From: Dehalococcoidia bacterium
GTDB lineage: Bacteria > Chloroflexota > Dehalococcoidia > Bin125
Assembly: GCA_022828105.1 (NCBI GenBank)
Contig: JAJEJC010000007.1
Span: 336,688 to 400,687 of the forward strand
Direction of reading: 5' to 3'
DNA length: 64,000 nucleotides
Position 1 is the first letter of the stretch. Every line of letters begins with the position of its first letter. Below the pieces are notes generated by a model. That model ran no database searches. It saw only the letters and a program-made list of their open reading frames with translations, and had not been told where the DNA came from. Of the stretch, positions 3,821-40,363 are shown piece by piece. The translations under genes and the position numbers were made by a program.

Positions 3821-4293
3821 CCGCGCGCGGCTTCGGCGAATCCGGCACGCTCCAGCGCGATCCGCTCCAGCTCCTTCATCCGGCGATCCTCCTCTACCTC
3901 CTCGTGATCGAATCCAAGCAGATGCAGCGTGCCGTGGACTGTGAGCAAGGCCAGCTCGGCCGCCAGTGTGGCGCCCCGTTGCCGCGCCCCGCGCGCCGCG
4001 ACCGGCAAGGCGATCACAATCTCGCCCAGGTCGGCCGCGCCGTCGGGCCGGCGCAAGCCGTAGAAATCGGTGTTGAAGGAGAGCACATCGGTCGCCGAGT
4101 CCTCACCACGAAAGCGCCGATTCAGCCGCCGCACGGTGCGCGAGTCGGTGACACGCAGGGAGACGACGCGGGCGACTCGCAGTTTCCGCGATGCGAGCGT
4201 CTCCCGCACGCAACGCTCAAGAGCGTCCACATCAACCCGGTGGAGAAACGGTGGATCGACCAGGATGTCGACGAAATGTCGGTCGGCGCTCAC
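3817..4293 (-). CDS. ybeY: rRNA maturation endoribonuclease YbeY
   Basis: LNRRFRG.D.ATDVLSF, LGEIVI, HGTLHLLGFDH metal-binding motif. Confidence 0.95.
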   Translation of the reverse strand: MSADRHFVDILVDPPFLHRVDVDALERCVRETLASRKLRVARVVSLRVTDSRTVRRLNRRFRGEDSATDVLSFNTDFYGLRRPDGAADLGEIVIALPVAARGARQRGATLAAELALLTVHGTLHLLGFDHEEVEEDRRMKELERIALERAGFAEAARG

Positions 4294-36309: not shown

Positions 36310-37374
36310 TTACATCGGTACGGTCACCGGGCGGGTCATGCCGCCGAAGGTGGGCATCCAGCAGGAGTGTTTGCCCGGGCCGCCGGCGACGATGATGTGG
36401 ATTTCATCGGGCTTGTCGGTGATCGGCAGCCATTCGTCGGCGCTGTGAGTGGGCAGGACTCCGCCGGCCATGCGGATGTTGACGGACTCGAGGAACTCGG
36501 GGCTGAGCTTGCTCGCGGGGTAGCGGGCGTGCTCCCAGAGGTACTCCTGGACCGACTCGCGGGTCCAGCCCTCGGCGGCGACCGTCTCCGCGTGCTCGGG
36601 TCCGAAGGCCAGCACCGGCTCGCCCTTGCCGAGGATGTTGTTGGAGCCGGCCTGACCCATCGCGCCGGCGACGGTCTGGAGGATGCCGGCGGCGGTGTTG
36701 CTGCCGTGGTCCTGGATGTTGTGCGGGCCCTCGCAGGCCCAGGTCGTGATGCAACTGTCCTCGGCGTTGAGCCCGCGCGTCGTCTGGAAGGGCGGCCAGG
36801 GCGAGGCGTCCTCGCGCTCGGTCGCGCAGAAGGCGAACTTGGCCGGTGTGCCCTGCGTCGCGCGGTCGCCGCGACCGGGCGTCGCGCCGGCGACGTTGAG
36901 TTGGACCAGGCGCACGGCTCGGCCGATGGTGGCGTTGGAGGGAAACGTGGGACCGAAGCAGCCCGAGCCGCCGTGAATCCCGGCCGCGCGCGCCGCTGGA
37001 CCTGACGCCAGCACGAAGACGGCGCAGGGATGCGTCGTTGCGTTGATCCCGTCGAGGTTGAAGGGCGGCTGCGAGATCGCCTCGACCGCCGCCAGCACGA
37101 TGGGAAACTGCTGCGGCCGGCAGCCGGCCATGACGGCGTTGATCGCGATTGCCTCGACCGTCGCCTCGCCCTGACGCGGCGCGAGCACACCCAGAACTTC
37201 CAGTGAATCGCGACCCGACGATTCAATCATCGCGTTGACGCGGCCGGGGGTGGGAGGAATCAAAGGGAGTCCATCGGACCAGCCTCGTCGGATGCACTCC
37301 TGGGAGAAGTCGAACGAATCCGAGGGCAGCGAAAACCGCTCGGCCGAACGACCTTGGGCTGTCTGTGAAGGCAT
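36310..37374 (-). CDS. Conserved protein of unknown function, putative UGSC-selenoprotein partner
   Basis: Motifs GWSDGLPLIPPT, IAINAVMAGC, NATIGRAVRL, PEHA, VAGGPG; same strand and downstream of the UGSC gene. Confidence 0.75.
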   Translation of the reverse strand: MPSQTAQGRSAERFSLPSDSFDFSQECIRRGWSDGLPLIPPTPGRVNAMIESSGRDSLEVLGVLAPRQGEATVEAIAINAVMAGCRPQQFPIVLAAVEAISQPPFNLDGINATTHPCAVFVLASGPAARAAGIHGGSGCFGPTFPSNATIGRAVRLVQLNVAGATPGRGDRATQGTPAKFAFCATEREDASPWPPFQTTRGLNAEDSCITTWACEGPHNIQDHGSNTAAGILQTVAGAMGQAGSNNILGKGEPVLAFGPEHAETVAAEGWTRESVQEYLWEHARYPASKLSPEFLESVNIRMAGGVLPTHSADEWLPITDKPDEIHIIVAGGPGKHSCWMPTFGGMTRPVTVPM

Positions 37375-37383
37375 GGGCGAGTC

Positions 37384-37718
37384 CTAACTCTGAACAGTCG
37401 GCACATATGAAGGCGAAGTCGGGGATCGTGGATCATGGCCTACACGATAAATTCTCACATCGCCCACGCGGATCGCGGTAGGAAACGGCAGGGTTTCGCC
37501 GGTTGCGCACGTGAGGTATGGATGATCACGACTGCCTGGTCTTGCTTGTCGCGCAAGCGAATCACGTAGGAGGTCCCGTCACAGGATCGAGCCGGCCCGA
37601 CGCTGCGGTAACTCACGTCCTCGGTGAGGCAGCCCGCGTCGATCAGTTCAGTGAAGCCCATGGCAAAGAAGAGATCGAACAGCTCGTAATCGCGAAGTTG
37701 TACCCTTGCCTCAGGCAC
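37384..37718 (-). pseudogene. Possible frameshifted small gene
   Basis: Frame from GTG 37718 (..QAVVIIH) continues protein-like in the -1 frame from 37518 (YLTCATGETLPFPTAIRVGDVRIYRVGH..) to TAG at 37384. Confidence 0.3.
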
Positions 37719-37730
37719 AGGAGTGACCCA

Positions 37731-38003
37731 ATGCCCAGCAACGTCGAAGTCCGGCGCGAGTTGACGAACCTGATTTCTTCGTGCCTCGACGGCACGGCGA
37801 CGGCAACGGAGTTCCTGGCATTCGCGGCTCCATTAGCGCTTGACGAAGAGATTGACGACGAGTTGCGCGGCGACCTCGATCGCCTCTCACTGGTGGCCGA
37901 CGAGGTACAGCGGTTTGGCCTTGCGCCCGAAGTATTCCTCGATGCCGTTCGCGCAGTATCGCAACGCAAGTTGGGCGTCGATCTCGCGCCGGCAGCCGAC
38001 TGA
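37731..38003 (+). CDS. Small acidic hypothetical protein
   Basis: AGGAG RBS then ATG 37731; 90 aa MPSNVEVRRELTNLISSCLDG... Confidence 0.55.
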   Translation: MPSNVEVRRELTNLISSCLDGTATATEFLAFAAPLALDEEIDDELRGDLDRLSLVADEVQRFGLAPEVFLDAVRAVSQRKLGVDLAPAAD

Positions 38004-38018
38004 ACACGCTCTCAGCGC

Positions 38019-38555
38019 TCAGCCCTGACCCAGCAGGGCCGATTCCAGGCGGTCGACGACGGCGTCGTCGACTCGGGCGCGGACGCGGTCGGGGCGCAGG
38101 CCGCCGAGCGGATGCTGCACGATCAGGCGGTCGAGCTCGGGCAGGCCTCGCTGCTCGGCTTCGAGTTGGAGCAGGTCGGTGAAGGCCGAGGTGCCGACGG
38201 TGACGGTCGGGATTCCCAGTTCTTCGAAGAGGACCGAGGCGTGGACACTCCACGTCGTGCAGCTGCCTCAATCGCAGCTCCCGATCAGGAGAAAATCGGC
38301 GCCGTTGCGCAAGGCGTCAATCGTGGAGTCGGAAGGCGGACCGCCAACCGGCTTACTGCCAACCACCAACTCGCCAAGATCGTGCCGCTCGCCCAGCCGC
38401 TCGACCATGGTCTCCATCAGCAGCCGGGCGTTGGCTTTGCGGTTTTCAAGGATCCCGGGTCGGAGGCCGTCGAGGGAGAGAGGACGAGGCGCAGCGGTCG
38501 CCTCGTGAATCGCGACGTGGGCCTGTGGGCTGAGAATTTCGATGGTTTCGGGCAT
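38019..38555 (-). CDS. UGSC-family selenoprotein (in-frame UGA = Sec at 38268-38270), 178 aa
   Basis: ORF 38268-38555 ends ..IGSCD at TGA; the same frame continues GSCTTWSVHASVLFEELGIPTVTVGTSAF..HPLGGL.. to TGA at 38019; SECIS-like hairpin follows the UGA. Confidence 0.85.
38236..38270 (-). promoter_or_regulatory. Candidate bacterial SECIS element
   Basis: UGA-GGCAGCUGCACGA-CGUGGA-GUG-UCCACG-CCUC: 6-bp upper stem with a G-starting loop 19 nt after the UGA. Confidence 0.6.
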
Positions 38556-38581: not shown

Positions 38582-38833
38582 CTATTCGAGCCGAGAGTAG
38601 ATCAACTCGCGGAGCTCATCCATGTCGGGGAAGCGGCCCATGGCGGCCTTGCTGAAGACGAGGTCTCCGTTGACCTTCCACTCGAACAGGCCCCTCGTGT
38701 CGGGGACCAGCTTGACGTCCGAGACGAGGTGCTGGATGTCGGTCATCAGCTCGCCCAGCATCCAGGAGGTGCGCGGCCAGTAGCCGCAATCGGCGCAGTA
38801 GACGACTTCGATGGCGATCTGCTTGTCGGACAT
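38582..38833 (-). CDS. Rdx family (SelT/SelW/SelH-like) thioredoxin-fold protein, Cys form
   Basis: I.VVYCADCGY..R, LVP..RGLFE..VNG..VFSK...GRFP. Confidence 0.85.
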   Translation of the reverse strand: MSDKQIAIEVVYCADCGYWPRTSWMLGELMTDIQHLVSDVKLVPDTRGLFEWKVNGDLVFSKAAMGRFPDMDELRELIYSRLE

Positions 38834-38842
38834 GGTTGAGTC

Positions 38843-39841
38843 CTAGCCGCCCAGGTACTGCTCGAGCCGGCGGCCGACGTCGACGGCGTCGCCCGAGGGC
38901 AGCGGGATCATCTGCAGGTCTGCGCCGGCGTCGGAGCGGGCCTGGAGCTGCTCAGGCACCGATTCGATCGGGCCGATCACCTGGATTTCGCGGACCATGC
39001 TCTCGGAGAAGGCCATCAGCGCGCCCTCGGAGTCGCGGTCGGCCCAGGCGGCGCGGGAGTCCTTGATCTCGGACTCGAAGCCCGAGCGCGAGAGCATTTG
39101 CCAGTAGAACGAGCCCATGCGGTTGGTGTAGTGGAAGAGCGGCTGGCGGGCGTTGCGCCAGACCTGCTCGTCGTCGCCTTCGCCGGTGACGTAGACGTTG
39201 GTAAAGGGCGCGACGGTGACCGAGTCCTCGGGACGGCCGGCGTCGCGCGACGCGCCGGCGAGCTGCCGCTTGAGCGGTTCGAAGCCGCGCCGCGGCCAGT
39301 GGATCGGGTAGATGCCGTCCGCGATCTCGCCGGTCTGCTGGATCGAGCGCGGGGTGATCGCCGCGATCCAGACGGGCAGGTCTTCGCGCACCGGTTCGTA
39401 GCCGAGCAGCCGGAAGCCGCGCTGTAGCGTGTAGATCTCACCCTCGTACTGGAGGCGCTGTCCGCTAAGCAGCATCTTGATGATCTCGGTGTACTCGCGG
39501 ATGCGGCGCAGCGGACGGTCGAAGTCGACGCCGTGGAAGCCCTCGATCACGAGGTTGCCGGAGGAGCCGAGGCCGCAGACCATCCGTCCGCCGGAGATCG
39601 TCTCCAACGTGGCGAACTCCTGCGCAATCGCGGCGGGCGTGCGCGAGAAGGTGTTGAGGATGCCGGTGCCGATCTGCATCTTCTCGGTGTTGGCGGCGAT
39701 CACGGTCAGCCAGGGCAGCACCGAGTGTCCCCAGGCTTCGCCGGTGGAGACCATTTCGTAGCCGAGGTCCTCGGCGATCTTGATTTTCTCGAGCGTGTCG
39801 CGCCAGTTGGCGTCGAATCCGGCCAGGATGCCCAGTCGCAT
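38843..39841 (-). CDS. LLM-class flavin/F420-dependent oxidoreductase
   Basis: AEDLGY....GEAWG, IGTGI.N.FSRTPA, SGGR..GLGSSG..VIEGFHG. Confidence 0.88.
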   Translation of the reverse strand: MRLGILAGFDANWRDTLEKIKIAEDLGYEMVSTGEAWGHSVLPWLTVIAANTEKMQIGTGILNTFSRTPAAIAQEFATLETISGGRMVCGLGSSGNLVIEGFHGVDFDRPLRRIREYTEIIKMLLSGQRLQYEGEIYTLQRGFRLLGYEPVREDLPVWIAAITPRSIQQTGEIADGIYPIHWPRRGFEPLKRQLAGASRDAGRPEDSVTVAPFTNVYVTGEGDDEQVWRNARQPLFHYTNRMGSFYWQMLSRSGFESEIKDSRAAWADRDSEGALMAFSESMVREIQVIGPIESVPEQLQARSDAGADLQMIPLPSGDAVDVGRRLEQYLGG

Positions 39842-39901: not shown

Positions 39902-40363
39902 CTATTCGATTTCGACGATCATCTCGATTTCGACTGCCATGCCGACCGGGAGGGATTGCATGCCGACGGCCGAGCGTGCGTGGCGGCCCGACTCGCCGAA
40001 CAGCTCGACGAGCAGGTCGGAGGCGCCGTTGGCGACGCCGGGATGGTTGCCGAAGTCGGGGGTGCAGTTGACCATGCAAAGCAGCTTGACGATCCGCGAG
40101 ACGCGGTCGAGCGAGCCAATCTCGGCCCGCAGCGAGCCGAGCAACTGGACCATCACGGCACGCGCGGCCTGGTAGCCCTGGTCGACATCGAGGTCGTCGC
40201 CCAGCTTGCCGCGGATCAGCTCGCCGTCCTGGAACGGACCGTGTCCCGAGAGAAACACGAGATTGCCGGTCCGCACCGCCGGCACGTAGTTGGCCAGCGG
40301 CGGATTGGTGGACAGGTCGAGTCCCATTTCCAACGCTTTGGCGTCGGCGTTATGTGCAGACAT
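39902..40363 (-). CDS. RidA/YjgF family protein
   Basis: ANYVPAVRTGNLVFLSGHGP, NGASDLL.ELFGE.GRHARSAVG..SLP....VEIE. Confidence 0.92.
   Translation of the reverse strand: MSAHNADAKALEMGLDLSTNPPLANYVPAVRTGNLVFLSGHGPFQDGELIRGKLGDDLDVDQGYQAARAVMVQLLGSLRAEIGSLDRVSRIVKLLCMVNCTPDFGNHPGVANGASDLLVELFGESGRHARSAVGMQSLPVGMAVEIEMIVEIE

What the first reader, a model, noticed from the sequence alone, without database searches (positions are those of the whole stretch)
38019..38555. Hidden UGA-recoded selenoprotein with a C-D-U-G-S-C motif and SECIS-like hairpin
Seen: the 95-aa ORF in the track stops at TGA (38268-38270) straight after ...LIGSCD, but the same frame continues for 82 more codons (GSCTTWSVHASVLFEELGIPTVTVGTSAF...HPLGGL...) to 38019. 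A CGUGGA-GUG-UCCACG hairpin has its G-starting loop 19 nt after the UGA, and GAGG/CCUC can close a lower stem. Known: U-G-S-C defines the UGSC family of bacterial selenoproteins, whose function is unknown, and this geometry fits the bacterial SECIS model. Inference: one 178-aa Sec protein, which automated annotation would split. The extra Cys two residues before Sec gives overlapping CxU and UxxC motifs, which could be a three-chalcogen redox or metal site.
Basis: partly seen in the sequence, partly recalled or inferred. Interest (0 to 1): 0.82.

Follow-up and report, generated by a model that had tools for sequence, protein, structure and literature searches.

The report
UGSC selenoprotein with conserved unnamed partner
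This is a real selenocysteine-containing gene of the known but functionally unexplained UGSC family, which gene finders cut in half at its UGA codon, and it belongs to a widespread two-gene unit with an unnamed partner protein.

Summary
Window 38555..38019 (-) reads through TGA 38270-38268 to give a 178-aa protein that matches Pfam UGSC (PF24696, 139.7 bits) on both sides of the TGA. All 17 orthologs keep the TGA. The genome has selA, selB, selD and tRNA-Sec. The hairpin 19 nt after UGA is the only long run of synonymously frozen codons in the gene, and it shows a compensatory C-G to G-C change relative to the other Sec forms.

This is a known family, so the find is a new member, not a new kind. 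Its clade is a separate Sec lineage with C-D-U-G-S-C-T-T-W: Cys at -2 and Trp where other Sec forms have the third Cys. It scores below NCBIfam's UGSC cut-off (106 vs 125 bits).

Three further results:
- The 354-aa ORF at 36310-37374 is a partner found beside UGSC in 78 of 82 loci. It is fused to UGSC, or to thioredoxin-reductase-like domains, in other organisms.
- UGSC is a probable homolog (hhalign 95-96%) of the Sec-bearing C-terminal domain of GrdB-type reductases.
- The model fold is flavodoxin-like, not an evident thioredoxin fold.

The substrate is unknown. This scan has already reported the UGSC-partner module on other DNA (707 notes).

The parts
38019..38555 (-). UGSC-family selenoprotein gene: 178 codons plus the terminal TGA, with Sec at codon 96
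   Evidence: Translation with TGA=U. PF24696 scores 139.7 bits over aa 6-167. NF041046 scores 106.3 bits, below its cut-off of 125.
38268..38270 (-). In-frame UGA read as selenocysteine (U96)
   Evidence: TGA is kept in 18 of 18 orthologous genes. The same column is TGA in 40 other loci and Cys in 23. The Sec machinery is present in the genome.
38240..38254 (-). SECIS apical hairpin CGUGGA-GUG-UCCACG, with the loop G 19 nt after UGA
   Evidence: 100% of cells are paired in 45 distinct sequences, with one compensatory pair and one wobble pair. Codons 100-106 (38258-38238) are frozen while 130 of 139 other comparable codons vary. The genome's PrdB-like Sec genes have GU-loop hairpins at the same distance.
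38236..38269 (-). Possible lower stem GAGG (38269-38266) with CCUC (38239-38236), enclosing the hairpin
   Evidence: The pairing is seen in the sequence and in the MFE fold. Ala106 is always GCC and Ser107 always UCN in the orthologs. The stem is not shared by the other Sec groups, so it is weakly supported.
36310..37374 (-). orf354: partner protein of UGSC, from a large unnamed family
   Evidence: A homolog lies within 4 kb of UGSC in 78 of 82 loci. It is fused to UGSC in 20 of 150 representatives. 33 of 38 longer homologs are fused to Pyr_redox/TrxR-like domains. There is no Pfam or NCBIfam hit at E<=10. The AF2 model has pLDDT 83.3 and no PDB match with TM>0.27.
37375..38018 (.). 644-nt insertion that separates UGSC from orf354 in this genome only
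   Evidence: Its two small ORFs match 0 of 82 loci. In ortholog L029 the UGSC stop overlaps the orf354 start as GTGA. The insert is single-copy in the genome, with GC 0.60 against 0.67 and 0.69 in the flanking genes.
38582..38833 (-). Rdx/SelW-T-H family gene (Cys form, CADC), ending 26 nt upstream of the UGSC start
   Evidence: PF10262 scores 64.4 bits and TIGR02174 59.1 bits. It lies upstream of UGSC in 17 of 17 orthologs and in no other locus.
38843..39841 (-). LLM-class (F420-type) oxidoreductase gene, same strand, ending 9 nt before the Rdx start
   Evidence: PF00296 scores 228.3 bits. The best NCBIfam hits are below their cut-offs. It is conserved upstream in the 17 orthologs.
39902..40363 (-). 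RidA/YjgF-like gene at the head of the same-strand run
   Evidence: PF14588 scores 69.9 bits. It is conserved in 17 of 17 orthologs only.

Best explanation
The gene at 38555..38019 (-) encodes one 178-aa selenoprotein of the UGSC family.

How the UGA is read: UGA-96 is decoded as selenocysteine by the genome's own SelA/SelB/SelC/SelD system. SelB is directed by a short hairpin inside the coding sequence, whose GUG loop starts 19 nt after the UGA.

The protein: the model is a flavodoxin-like alpha/beta domain. Sec96 sits between strand 3 and the N-terminus of helix 3, and Cys99 lies one helical turn further on. Inferred: Sec96 and Cys99 form a selenenylsulfide redox couple. In this clade Cys94 (C-x-U) stands in for the +6 Cys of other Sec forms.

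The partner (inferred from adjacency and natural fusions): UGSC is the redox subunit of a two-part enzyme, and the 354-aa protein encoded downstream is the other part.

The mechanism: the domain is a probable homolog of the Sec-bearing C-terminal domain of GrdB-type reductases, and the partner is often fused to thioredoxin-reductase-like flavoproteins. The most likely mechanism (inferred, about 40%) is therefore a thiol/NAD(P)H-driven reductive reaction on a small, still unknown substrate held by the partner. Sec would act as the attacking or leaving nucleophile. In this locus the upstream Rdx (CxxC) protein is a candidate reductant.
For: Shown:
- Read-through frame and family match on both sides of the TGA.
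- Residues invariant on both sides in 36 sequences: K40, K68, D95, U/C96, G97, S98, C99, T101, E111, F125, H148, P149.
- TGA in 18 of 18 orthologs and in 40 other loci, Cys in 23.
- All three UGSC paralogs of this genome carry one in-frame TGA.
- selA 525.7 bits, selB 324/350 bits, selD 353.5 bits (itself with a TGA), tRNA-Sec 70.3 bits with anticodon tca.
- Hairpin covariation and frozen synonymous sites, and the same geometry in the genome's PrdB-like Sec genes.
- AF2 model with pLDDT 91.9 and pTM 0.85, with beta-alpha repeats.
- Partner adjacency in 78 of 82 loci. Three of the four misses are cut by a contig end on the relevant side.
- Four orf354 paralogs in this genome, all flanking the three UGSC genes.
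- UGSC-orf354 fusions in 20 of 150 representatives, 13 of them over at least 289 residues.
- 33 of 38 long orf354 homologs carry PF07992/PF00070, and some are named thioredoxin reductase by JGI.
- hhalign of UGSC against GrdB-type C-terminal regions: 95.5% (E 1.5e-8, 131 columns) and 95.4%. Against all 15 GrdB/PrdB-like sequences: 95.2% and 96.4%, with the Sec columns aligned. Reversed controls reach at most 1.5% and 30 column-permuted controls at most 1.3%.
Against: - No direct proof of Se incorporation.
- The single-sequence fold energy of the SECIS region is no better than shuffles (z -0.05).
- The compensatory change is one evolutionary event, and the hairpin codons also encode the conserved residues T-C/W-S-V-H.
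- NF041046 is below its cut-off (106.3 vs 125).
- The GrdB link rests on profile comparison only. It is weaker for PrdB-type sequences alone (45.8% and 87.6%). No UGSC member hits PF07355 (0 of 47). The language-model atlas gave no usable hit for the Cys form P0005.
- orf354 shows no relationship to GrdE/PrdA (0.2-0.3%) or to the GrdB N-domain (0.1%). The own genome has no PF09338, so the pyruvoyl chemistry of Grd/Prd cannot simply be transferred.
- In this window the two genes are separated by a 644-nt insert, so co-translation as in the orthologs is lost.
- Rdx, LLM and RidA are linked to UGSC only in this ortholog group.
Confidence: 0.85

Rival explanations
1. The TGA is an ordinary stop. 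The locus encodes a 95-aa protein, and the downstream frame is an untranslated remnant (a pseudogene) or a separate gene.
For: Table 11 gives a 95-aa ORF, and public gene calls hold such a 95-aa product (P0040). The hairpin region does not fold better than shuffles.
Against: The downstream 82 codons are conserved at protein level, with saturated synonymous change, in 18 orthologs. The Pfam model spans the TGA. Cys occupies the column in 23 loci and in most of the 150 representatives. The Sec machinery is complete.
Confidence: 0.03
2. UGSC is a free-standing thioredoxin-like thiol/selenol oxidoreductase, as the literature supposes. The neighbouring orf354 is only a syntenic gene, not a subunit.
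For: [quoted passage not shown] In this window the two genes are 644 nt apart.
Against: Fold search of the pLDDT 91.9 model returns flavodoxin-like and Rossmann-like proteins (TMq at most 0.50); no thioredoxin-fold protein is among the matches listed. Adjacency in 78 of 82 loci spans bacteria and archaea, and natural fusions exist. The invariant K40, K68, D95, E111 and H148 suggest more than a dithiol site.
Confidence: 0.1
3. The C94-x-U96-x-x-C99 cluster is a metal-binding (for example Hg, Cu or Zn) or three-chalcogen site rather than a catalytic redox couple.
For: Three soft ligands lie within six residues and are fixed in 18 of 18 genes of the clade. His148 is invariant in the family.
Against: Cys at -2 is clade-specific, seen in 2 of 150 other representatives. 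The +6 position is freely C, W, Y, G, A or S in Cys forms, so a three-ligand site is not a family feature. No metal-handling genes are in the conserved neighbourhood. Nothing was tested structurally.
Confidence: 0.07

Closest known systems
UGSC family (seleno)protein (Pfam PF24696; NCBIfam NF041046; the 'UGSC-containing protein' of Zhang and Gladyshev 2008, PMC2398784, passages read)
   Same: Full-length Pfam match. The D-U-G-S-C-x-T core is invariant. Sec and Cys alternate at one column. The size is about 180 aa. It is abundant in aquatic microbes and its function is unknown. The 2008 paper mentions a fusion to an 'Unknown_1' domain (its Fig. S1A, not seen), which is probably the orf354 family.
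   Different: It scores below the NF041046 equivalog cut-off (106.3 vs 125). Cys is at -2 and Trp at +6 instead of the G/A-D-U-G-S-C-x-T-C of the other Sec forms. In the quick tree it is a separate Sec lineage (SH-aLRT 98), sister to a Cys form and nested among Trp(+6) Cys forms.
Selenoprotein B of glycine/sarcosine/betaine reductase (GrdB; PF07355) and D-proline reductase PrdB
   Same: The Sec column aligns. The layout is the same: strand, U-x-x-(C), helix, E..GIP.. strand..HPLG. hhalign gives 95-96% against GrdB-type C-terminal regions. One GrdB-type sequence (L118) even reads U-G-S-C. Both work with a second, larger subunit.
   Different: UGSC lacks the GrdB N-terminal domain. No UGSC member hits PF07355. 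That model ends just before the Sec. The partner orf354 is unrelated to the pyruvoyl proproteins GrdE/PrdA. The roles of Sec in Grd and Prd are recalled from the literature, not checked here.
Bacterial SECIS elements (the E. coli fdhF type and the bSECISearch model; recalled)
   Same: The hairpin lies inside the ORF just after UGA. G-U is in the apical loop. The distance from UGA to the loop (19 nt) is within the recalled 16-37 nt range.
   Different: The apical stem is very short (6 bp) and the loop has only 3 nt. No dedicated SECIS predictor was available here.

Membership tests
UGSC family (PF24696 / NF041046) | Match to the Pfam model above its gathering score, spanning the Sec/Cys column | tested here: met
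   139.7 bits against a cut-off of 25, over aa 6-167 of 178
UGSC family (PF24696 / NF041046) | Match to the NCBIfam equivalog model NF041046 above its curated cut-off | tested here: not met
   106.3 bits against a cut-off of 125. The natural fusions P0092 (119.8) and P0256 (84.1) are also below it.
UGSC family (PF24696 / NF041046) | U/C-G-S-C motif at the conserved column after a beta strand | tested here: met
   D95-U96-G97-S98-C99 is invariant in 36 aligned sequences. In the model, the strand is 88-94 and the helix 97-112.
Bacterial selenoprotein (SelB-dependent UGA recoding) | In-frame UGA conserved in orthologs, with Cys in homologs | tested here: met
   18 of 18 orthologs have TGA. A further 40 loci have TGA and 23 have Cys.
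Bacterial selenoprotein (SelB-dependent UGA recoding) | selA, selB, selC and selD in the genome | tested here: met
   all score above the family cut-offs, and the tRNA anticodon is tca
Bacterial selenoprotein (SelB-dependent UGA recoding) | SECIS hairpin downstream of the UGA, under selection | tested here: met
   (covariation and frozen synonymous sites). The energy z-score alone is not significant.
Bacterial selenoprotein (SelB-dependent UGA recoding) | Selenium physically present at residue 96 | not testable with these tools
   Needs 75Se labelling or mass spectrometry
GrdB/PrdB selenoprotein B (PF07355) | Match to the family HMM | tested here: not met
   0 of 47 UGSC members hit PF07355 at E<=10. 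The model stops just before the Sec.
GrdB/PrdB selenoprotein B (PF07355) | Homology of the Sec-bearing domain, with the Sec columns aligned | tested here: met
   hhalign gives 95.2-96.4%, with controls at most 1.5%. PrdB-type sequences alone give 45.8% and 87.6%.
GrdB/PrdB selenoprotein B (PF07355) | Pyruvoyl proprotein partner (GrdE/PrdA, PF09338) | tested here: not met
   No PF09338 in the own genome. orf354 against GrdE gives 0.2-0.3%.
Thioredoxin-fold oxidoreductases | Thioredoxin fold | tested here: not met
   Foldseek matches to the model are flavodoxin-like or Rossmann-like (TMq at most 0.50); no thioredoxin-fold protein is among the matches listed. This rests on a predicted model.

The most novel reading that the evidence does not exclude
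UGSC and the orf354 family are the two subunits of an undescribed, very widespread selenoenzyme found in bacteria and methanogens. Its Sec domain shares ancestry with the GrdB Sec domain but has a wholly different substrate-binding partner. It is driven by a thioredoxin-reductase-type electron supply and performs a reductive reaction on an unknown small molecule. The clade in this window has moved its third thiol from +6 to -2 (C-x-U-x-x-C), a natural experiment on which thiol resolves the selenenylsulfide.
Probability: 0.4. Interest if true: 0.7.

Novelty: new member of a known kind. Interest (0 to 1): 0.4.

Why it matters
UGSC is one of the most abundant selenoprotein families in aquatic metagenomes: 255 selenoproteins in the GOS table (PMC2398784, passages). 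A 2026 review still lists it as uncharacterised (PMC13188914, passages).

This locus adds four things:
- A cleanly supported SECIS with a natural compensatory mutation.
- A third Sec lineage with a shifted cysteine pattern.
- An obligate partner family of more than 5,700 'hypothetical' proteins with no Pfam model.
- Electron-supply clues (TrxR fusions) and an evolutionary link to GrdB.

Together these turn 'function unknown' into a concrete two-subunit enzyme that can be expressed and assayed.

For annotation, genes of this clade fall below NCBIfam's cut-off and are split at the UGA in public gene calls.

Tried and rejected
Nothing ran, so there is no result either way.
With the natural Cys form P0005 it gave no usable hit.
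- Sequence search of the PDB with the UGSC and orf354 profiles: only chance-level matches (E at least 0.04) or none.
- Fold search for orf354: nothing below E 1e-3, and TMq at most 0.27. The best match was the class I fumarate hydratase alpha subunit, which I do not regard as meaningful.
- orf354 against GrdE/PrdA and against the GrdB N-domain: no relationship.
- Search for further cross-phylum neighbours: only lineage-specific synteny. By the start of their sequences these look like ribonucleotide reductase, a tRNA synthetase and ThiC in methanogens, and Lut-like genes in one Dehalococcoidia group. They were not run against Pfam.
- The single-sequence thermodynamic test of the SECIS is uninformative in this GC-rich DNA.
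- Earlier-findings look-up for this genome found nothing relevant.

Full report
**1. Observation**

On the minus strand the 95-aa ORF 38555..38268 ends at TGA 38270-38268 after ...LIGSCD. The frame stays open for 82 more codons to a second TGA at 38021-38019. The hairpin CGUGGA (38254-38249), GUG (38248-38246), UCCACG (38245-38240) is present, and its loop G is 19 nt after the UGA. GAGG (38269-38266) and CCUC (38239-38236) can pair below it. By folding energy alone the region is unremarkable in this GC-rich DNA (z = -0.05, 90 of 200 shuffles fold as well).

**2. Family**

- The read-through protein matches Pfam PF24696 (UGSC) at 139.7 bits over residues 6-167, that is, on both sides of the TGA.
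- It matches NCBIfam NF041046 at 106.3 bits, below the curated cut-off of 125.
- A scan of one genome per species returned 123 relatives, of which the best 80 were kept (L025-L104). The tool back-translated my query with Cys at the Sec position, so one of its two search patterns could not see TGA forms.
- Of these 80 loci, 17 are orthologs (89-97% identity) in Dehalococcoidia/Chloroflexota MAGs, all with TGA and the context FLLIGSCDUGSCTTWSVHASVL.
- 40 are other Sec forms (G/A-D-U-G-S-C-x-T-C-S-V-H-D) from Pseudomonadales, Alphaproteobacteria, Myxococcota, Rokubacteria and Dehalococcoidia.
- 23 are Cys forms: 22 Methanobacteriota and one actinomycete.
- An alignment of 36 sequences (the window, its two paralogs, and 33 of the 80 loci) has invariant K40, K68, D95, U/C96, G97, S98, C99, T101, E111, F125, H148 and P149.
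- A search of 1.84 billion representatives with the three-paralog profile found 3,521 proteins at E<=0.001. One of them, P0040 (95 aa), ends at ...LIGSCD, so public gene calls truncate this gene at the TGA.

**3. Sec machinery**

The window's genome is 2.74 Mb in 10 contigs and 97% complete. It holds selA (525.7 bits), selB (324.4 bits, 349.9 with its C-terminal piece), selD (353.5 bits, itself with one in-frame TGA) and a tRNA-Sec (70.3 bits, anticodon tca). It has three UGSC genes, each with one in-frame TGA, about 33% identical to one another.

**4. SECIS**

- All 60 Sec-form genes (45 distinct sequences) carry ACG-UG(C/G)-AGU-GU(G/C)-CA(C/U)-G at the same place.
- For the 6-bp stem, 100% of cells pair. 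One pair is C-G in 32 distinct sequences and G-C in 13, which are the window's clade. There the Cys codon UGC became Trp UGG and the Val codon GUG became GUC. Another pair is G-C in 34 and G-U in 11. Slid controls pair in 5-74% of cells.
- The compensatory change is a single evolutionary event, so it counts once.
- Independent of it, the 18 orthologous genes have 139 codons with an invariant degenerate residue, and 130 of these use more than one codon. The only long frozen run is codons 100-106 (ACG ACG UGG AGU GUC CAC GCC, 38258-38238). The next longest is two codons, D95-U96.
- Thr is ACG and Ser is AGU in 60 of 60 sequences.
- By inspection, the archaeal Cys forms have no such hairpin. The actinomycete Cys form keeps a palindrome with a different loop.
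- The two PrdB-like Sec genes of this genome have hairpins with GU in the loop 18-19 nt after their UGA.

**5. What is peculiar here**

- Cys at -2 (C-D-U) is fixed in this clade (18 of 18) and goes with Trp at +6, where the other Sec forms have Cys.
- Among 150 representatives the +6 residue is variable (C, W, Y, G, A, S). Cys at -2 occurs in P0080 and P0124 only.
- A quick tree was built from 140 rows: the 36 rows of A2, plus 104 of the 150 representatives kept by a length filter (165-215 aa) and a motif filter. The careful search did not finish, and support is SH-aLRT only.
- In this tree the window's clade (7 rows, 98) is sister to the Cys form P0005 (99) and sits among Trp(+6) Cys forms, apart from the two other Sec groups. 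The Sec label needs at least three changes.
- Library rows are Cys forms by construction, because truncated Sec forms were filtered out.

**6. Structure**

The AF2 model (36-row alignment) has pLDDT 91.9 and pTM 0.85, with five beta-alpha units. Sec96 lies between strand 88-94 and helix 97-112. Foldseek against the PDB finds only generic flavodoxin-like or Rossmann-like proteins: azoreductases, FMN reductases, receiver domains and GTPases, with TMq at most 0.50. No thioredoxin-fold protein appears among the listed matches, although passages of PMC2398784 call the fold 'likely Trx-like'.

**7. Partner**

- tblastn of the window's neighbours against 82 UGSC loci shows a homolog of the 354-aa ORF (36310-37374, -) within 4 kb in 78. 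It lies just upstream in most bacterial loci and just downstream in the orthologs and the methanogens.
- Three of the four misses (L060, L065, L070) end at a contig edge on the relevant side. L092 is the one true miss.
- The genome has four orf354 paralogs, all flanking its three UGSC genes.
- 20 of the 150 UGSC representatives carry an orf354-like segment in the same polypeptide, 13 of them over at least 289 residues. One example is P0092, 561 aa, 45.6% identity over 340 residues.
- orf354 has no Pfam or NCBIfam match at E<=10 and at least 5,755 homologs. Every name that a source gives among the 120 listed is 'hypothetical protein'.
- Its model has pLDDT 83.3 and pTM 0.85, with no PDB match better than TMq 0.27.
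- Of 38 longer homologs (621-2000 aa), 33 carry Pyr_redox domains (PF07992, PF00070), and several are named thioredoxin reductase by JGI. Three carry PF24696 and two carry no domain.
- No other neighbour recurs across phyla.
- Rdx (Cys form, CADC), an LLM-class oxidoreductase and a RidA-like gene lie upstream in the 17 orthologs only.

**8. Link to GrdB/PrdB**

- The genome's two PF07355 genes are Sec proteins (...LTPV-U-PxC-T...) whose Pfam match ends just before the Sec.
- I read 15 GrdB/PrdB-like genes of the phylum sample through their TGA (16 loci; L110, from an unpublished genome, was left out). GrdB-type sequences read ...AVILTST-U-GTSTR(C/S)GAAIATELE(R/K)AGIPV...(H/Y)PLG, and L118 reads U-G-S-C.
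- hhalign of the UGSC alignments against these C-terminal regions gives 95.2% (E 2.6e-8, 91 columns) and 96.4% (1.2e-9, 102 columns), with the Sec columns aligned.
- Against the five GrdB-type sequences alone it gives 95.5% (131 columns, UGSC 34-175) and 95.4%. Against the ten PrdB-type sequences alone it gives 45.8% and 87.6%.
- Reversed controls give 0.6-1.5%, and 30 column-permuted controls reach at most 1.3%.
- No UGSC member hits PF07355 directly (0 of 47).
- orf354 is unrelated to GrdE (0.2-0.3%) and to the GrdB N-domain (0.1%). The own genome has no PF09338.
- In the passages I read of PMC2398784, PMC9312934 and PMC13188914, UGSC is listed apart from GrdB/PrdB, with no assigned structural domain: none in the first two papers, and only its own model NF041046 in the third. 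Searches for 'UGSC'+'selenoprotein' (9 papers) and 'UGSC'+'GrdB' (4 papers) showed no title or abstract that makes the link. I did not read the papers in full.

**9. Reading**

- Shown: a genuine UGSC-family Sec gene with its SECIS, and a conserved, sometimes fused partner.
- Inferred: the two form one enzyme. Sec96 and Cys99 cycle through a selenenylsulfide. Electrons come from a thioredoxin-reductase-type system, with Rdx as a local candidate. The chemistry resembles the reductive reactions of GrdB/PrdB, but the substrate-binding subunit is different. The substrate is unknown.
- In this genome a single-copy insert of 644 nt (GC 0.60) separates the two genes, which overlap (GTGA) in ortholog L029.

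**10. Verdict**

The finding is correct, but it is a member of a known family. This scan has already reported the UGSC-partner module on other DNA (707 notes in at least 438 genomes). I rate it a new member of a known kind, of moderate interest because the family's function remains an open and now testable question.

Noticed in passing
window 37375-38018: A 644-nt insert sits between UGSC and its partner gene and is absent from all 17 orthologs. It is single-copy in the genome, has lower GC (0.60) and holds two small ORFs (87 aa on the minus strand, about 90 aa on the plus strand) with no Pfam match. Its origin is unknown.
   Followed up: partly
L025 2312-3931, and the Rdx positions in L025-L041: In 11 of 17 orthologs the Rdx gene lies 1.0-1.9 kb further upstream of UGSC than in the window. 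In L025 the gap holds a 539-aa ORF with a signal-peptide-like start. The Rdx-UGSC spacer therefore seems to be an insertion hot spot.
   Followed up: partly
G000 C4:303510-304451 (L011): The genome's selD itself has an in-frame TGA (context GG-U-GSK), so it is a Sec-type SelD.
   Followed up: partly
G000 C7:343796-344155 and C2:44777-45169 (L105, L106): Two PrdB-like selenoprotein genes (LTPV-U-PxC) have long C-terminal extensions. The Pfam model PF07355 ends just before the Sec, so its match misses the Sec-bearing part of these proteins.
   Followed up: partly
G000 C4, about 412340-412372 (L022), upstream of UGSC paralog 1: The orf354 paralog there ends ...VCLDC-TGA, in the same frame as the UGSC start 8 codons downstream. 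I did not examine whether that TGA is only a stop.
   Followed up: no
G000 C9:92963-95839 (L123, L124): UGSC paralog 2 is sandwiched between two orf354 paralogs.
   Followed up: no
L093, about 4226-4273: An actinomycete Cys-form UGSC keeps a palindrome (CGTGCA-CGA-TGCACG) at the SECIS position. This may be a remnant of a recent Sec-to-Cys change.
   Followed up: no
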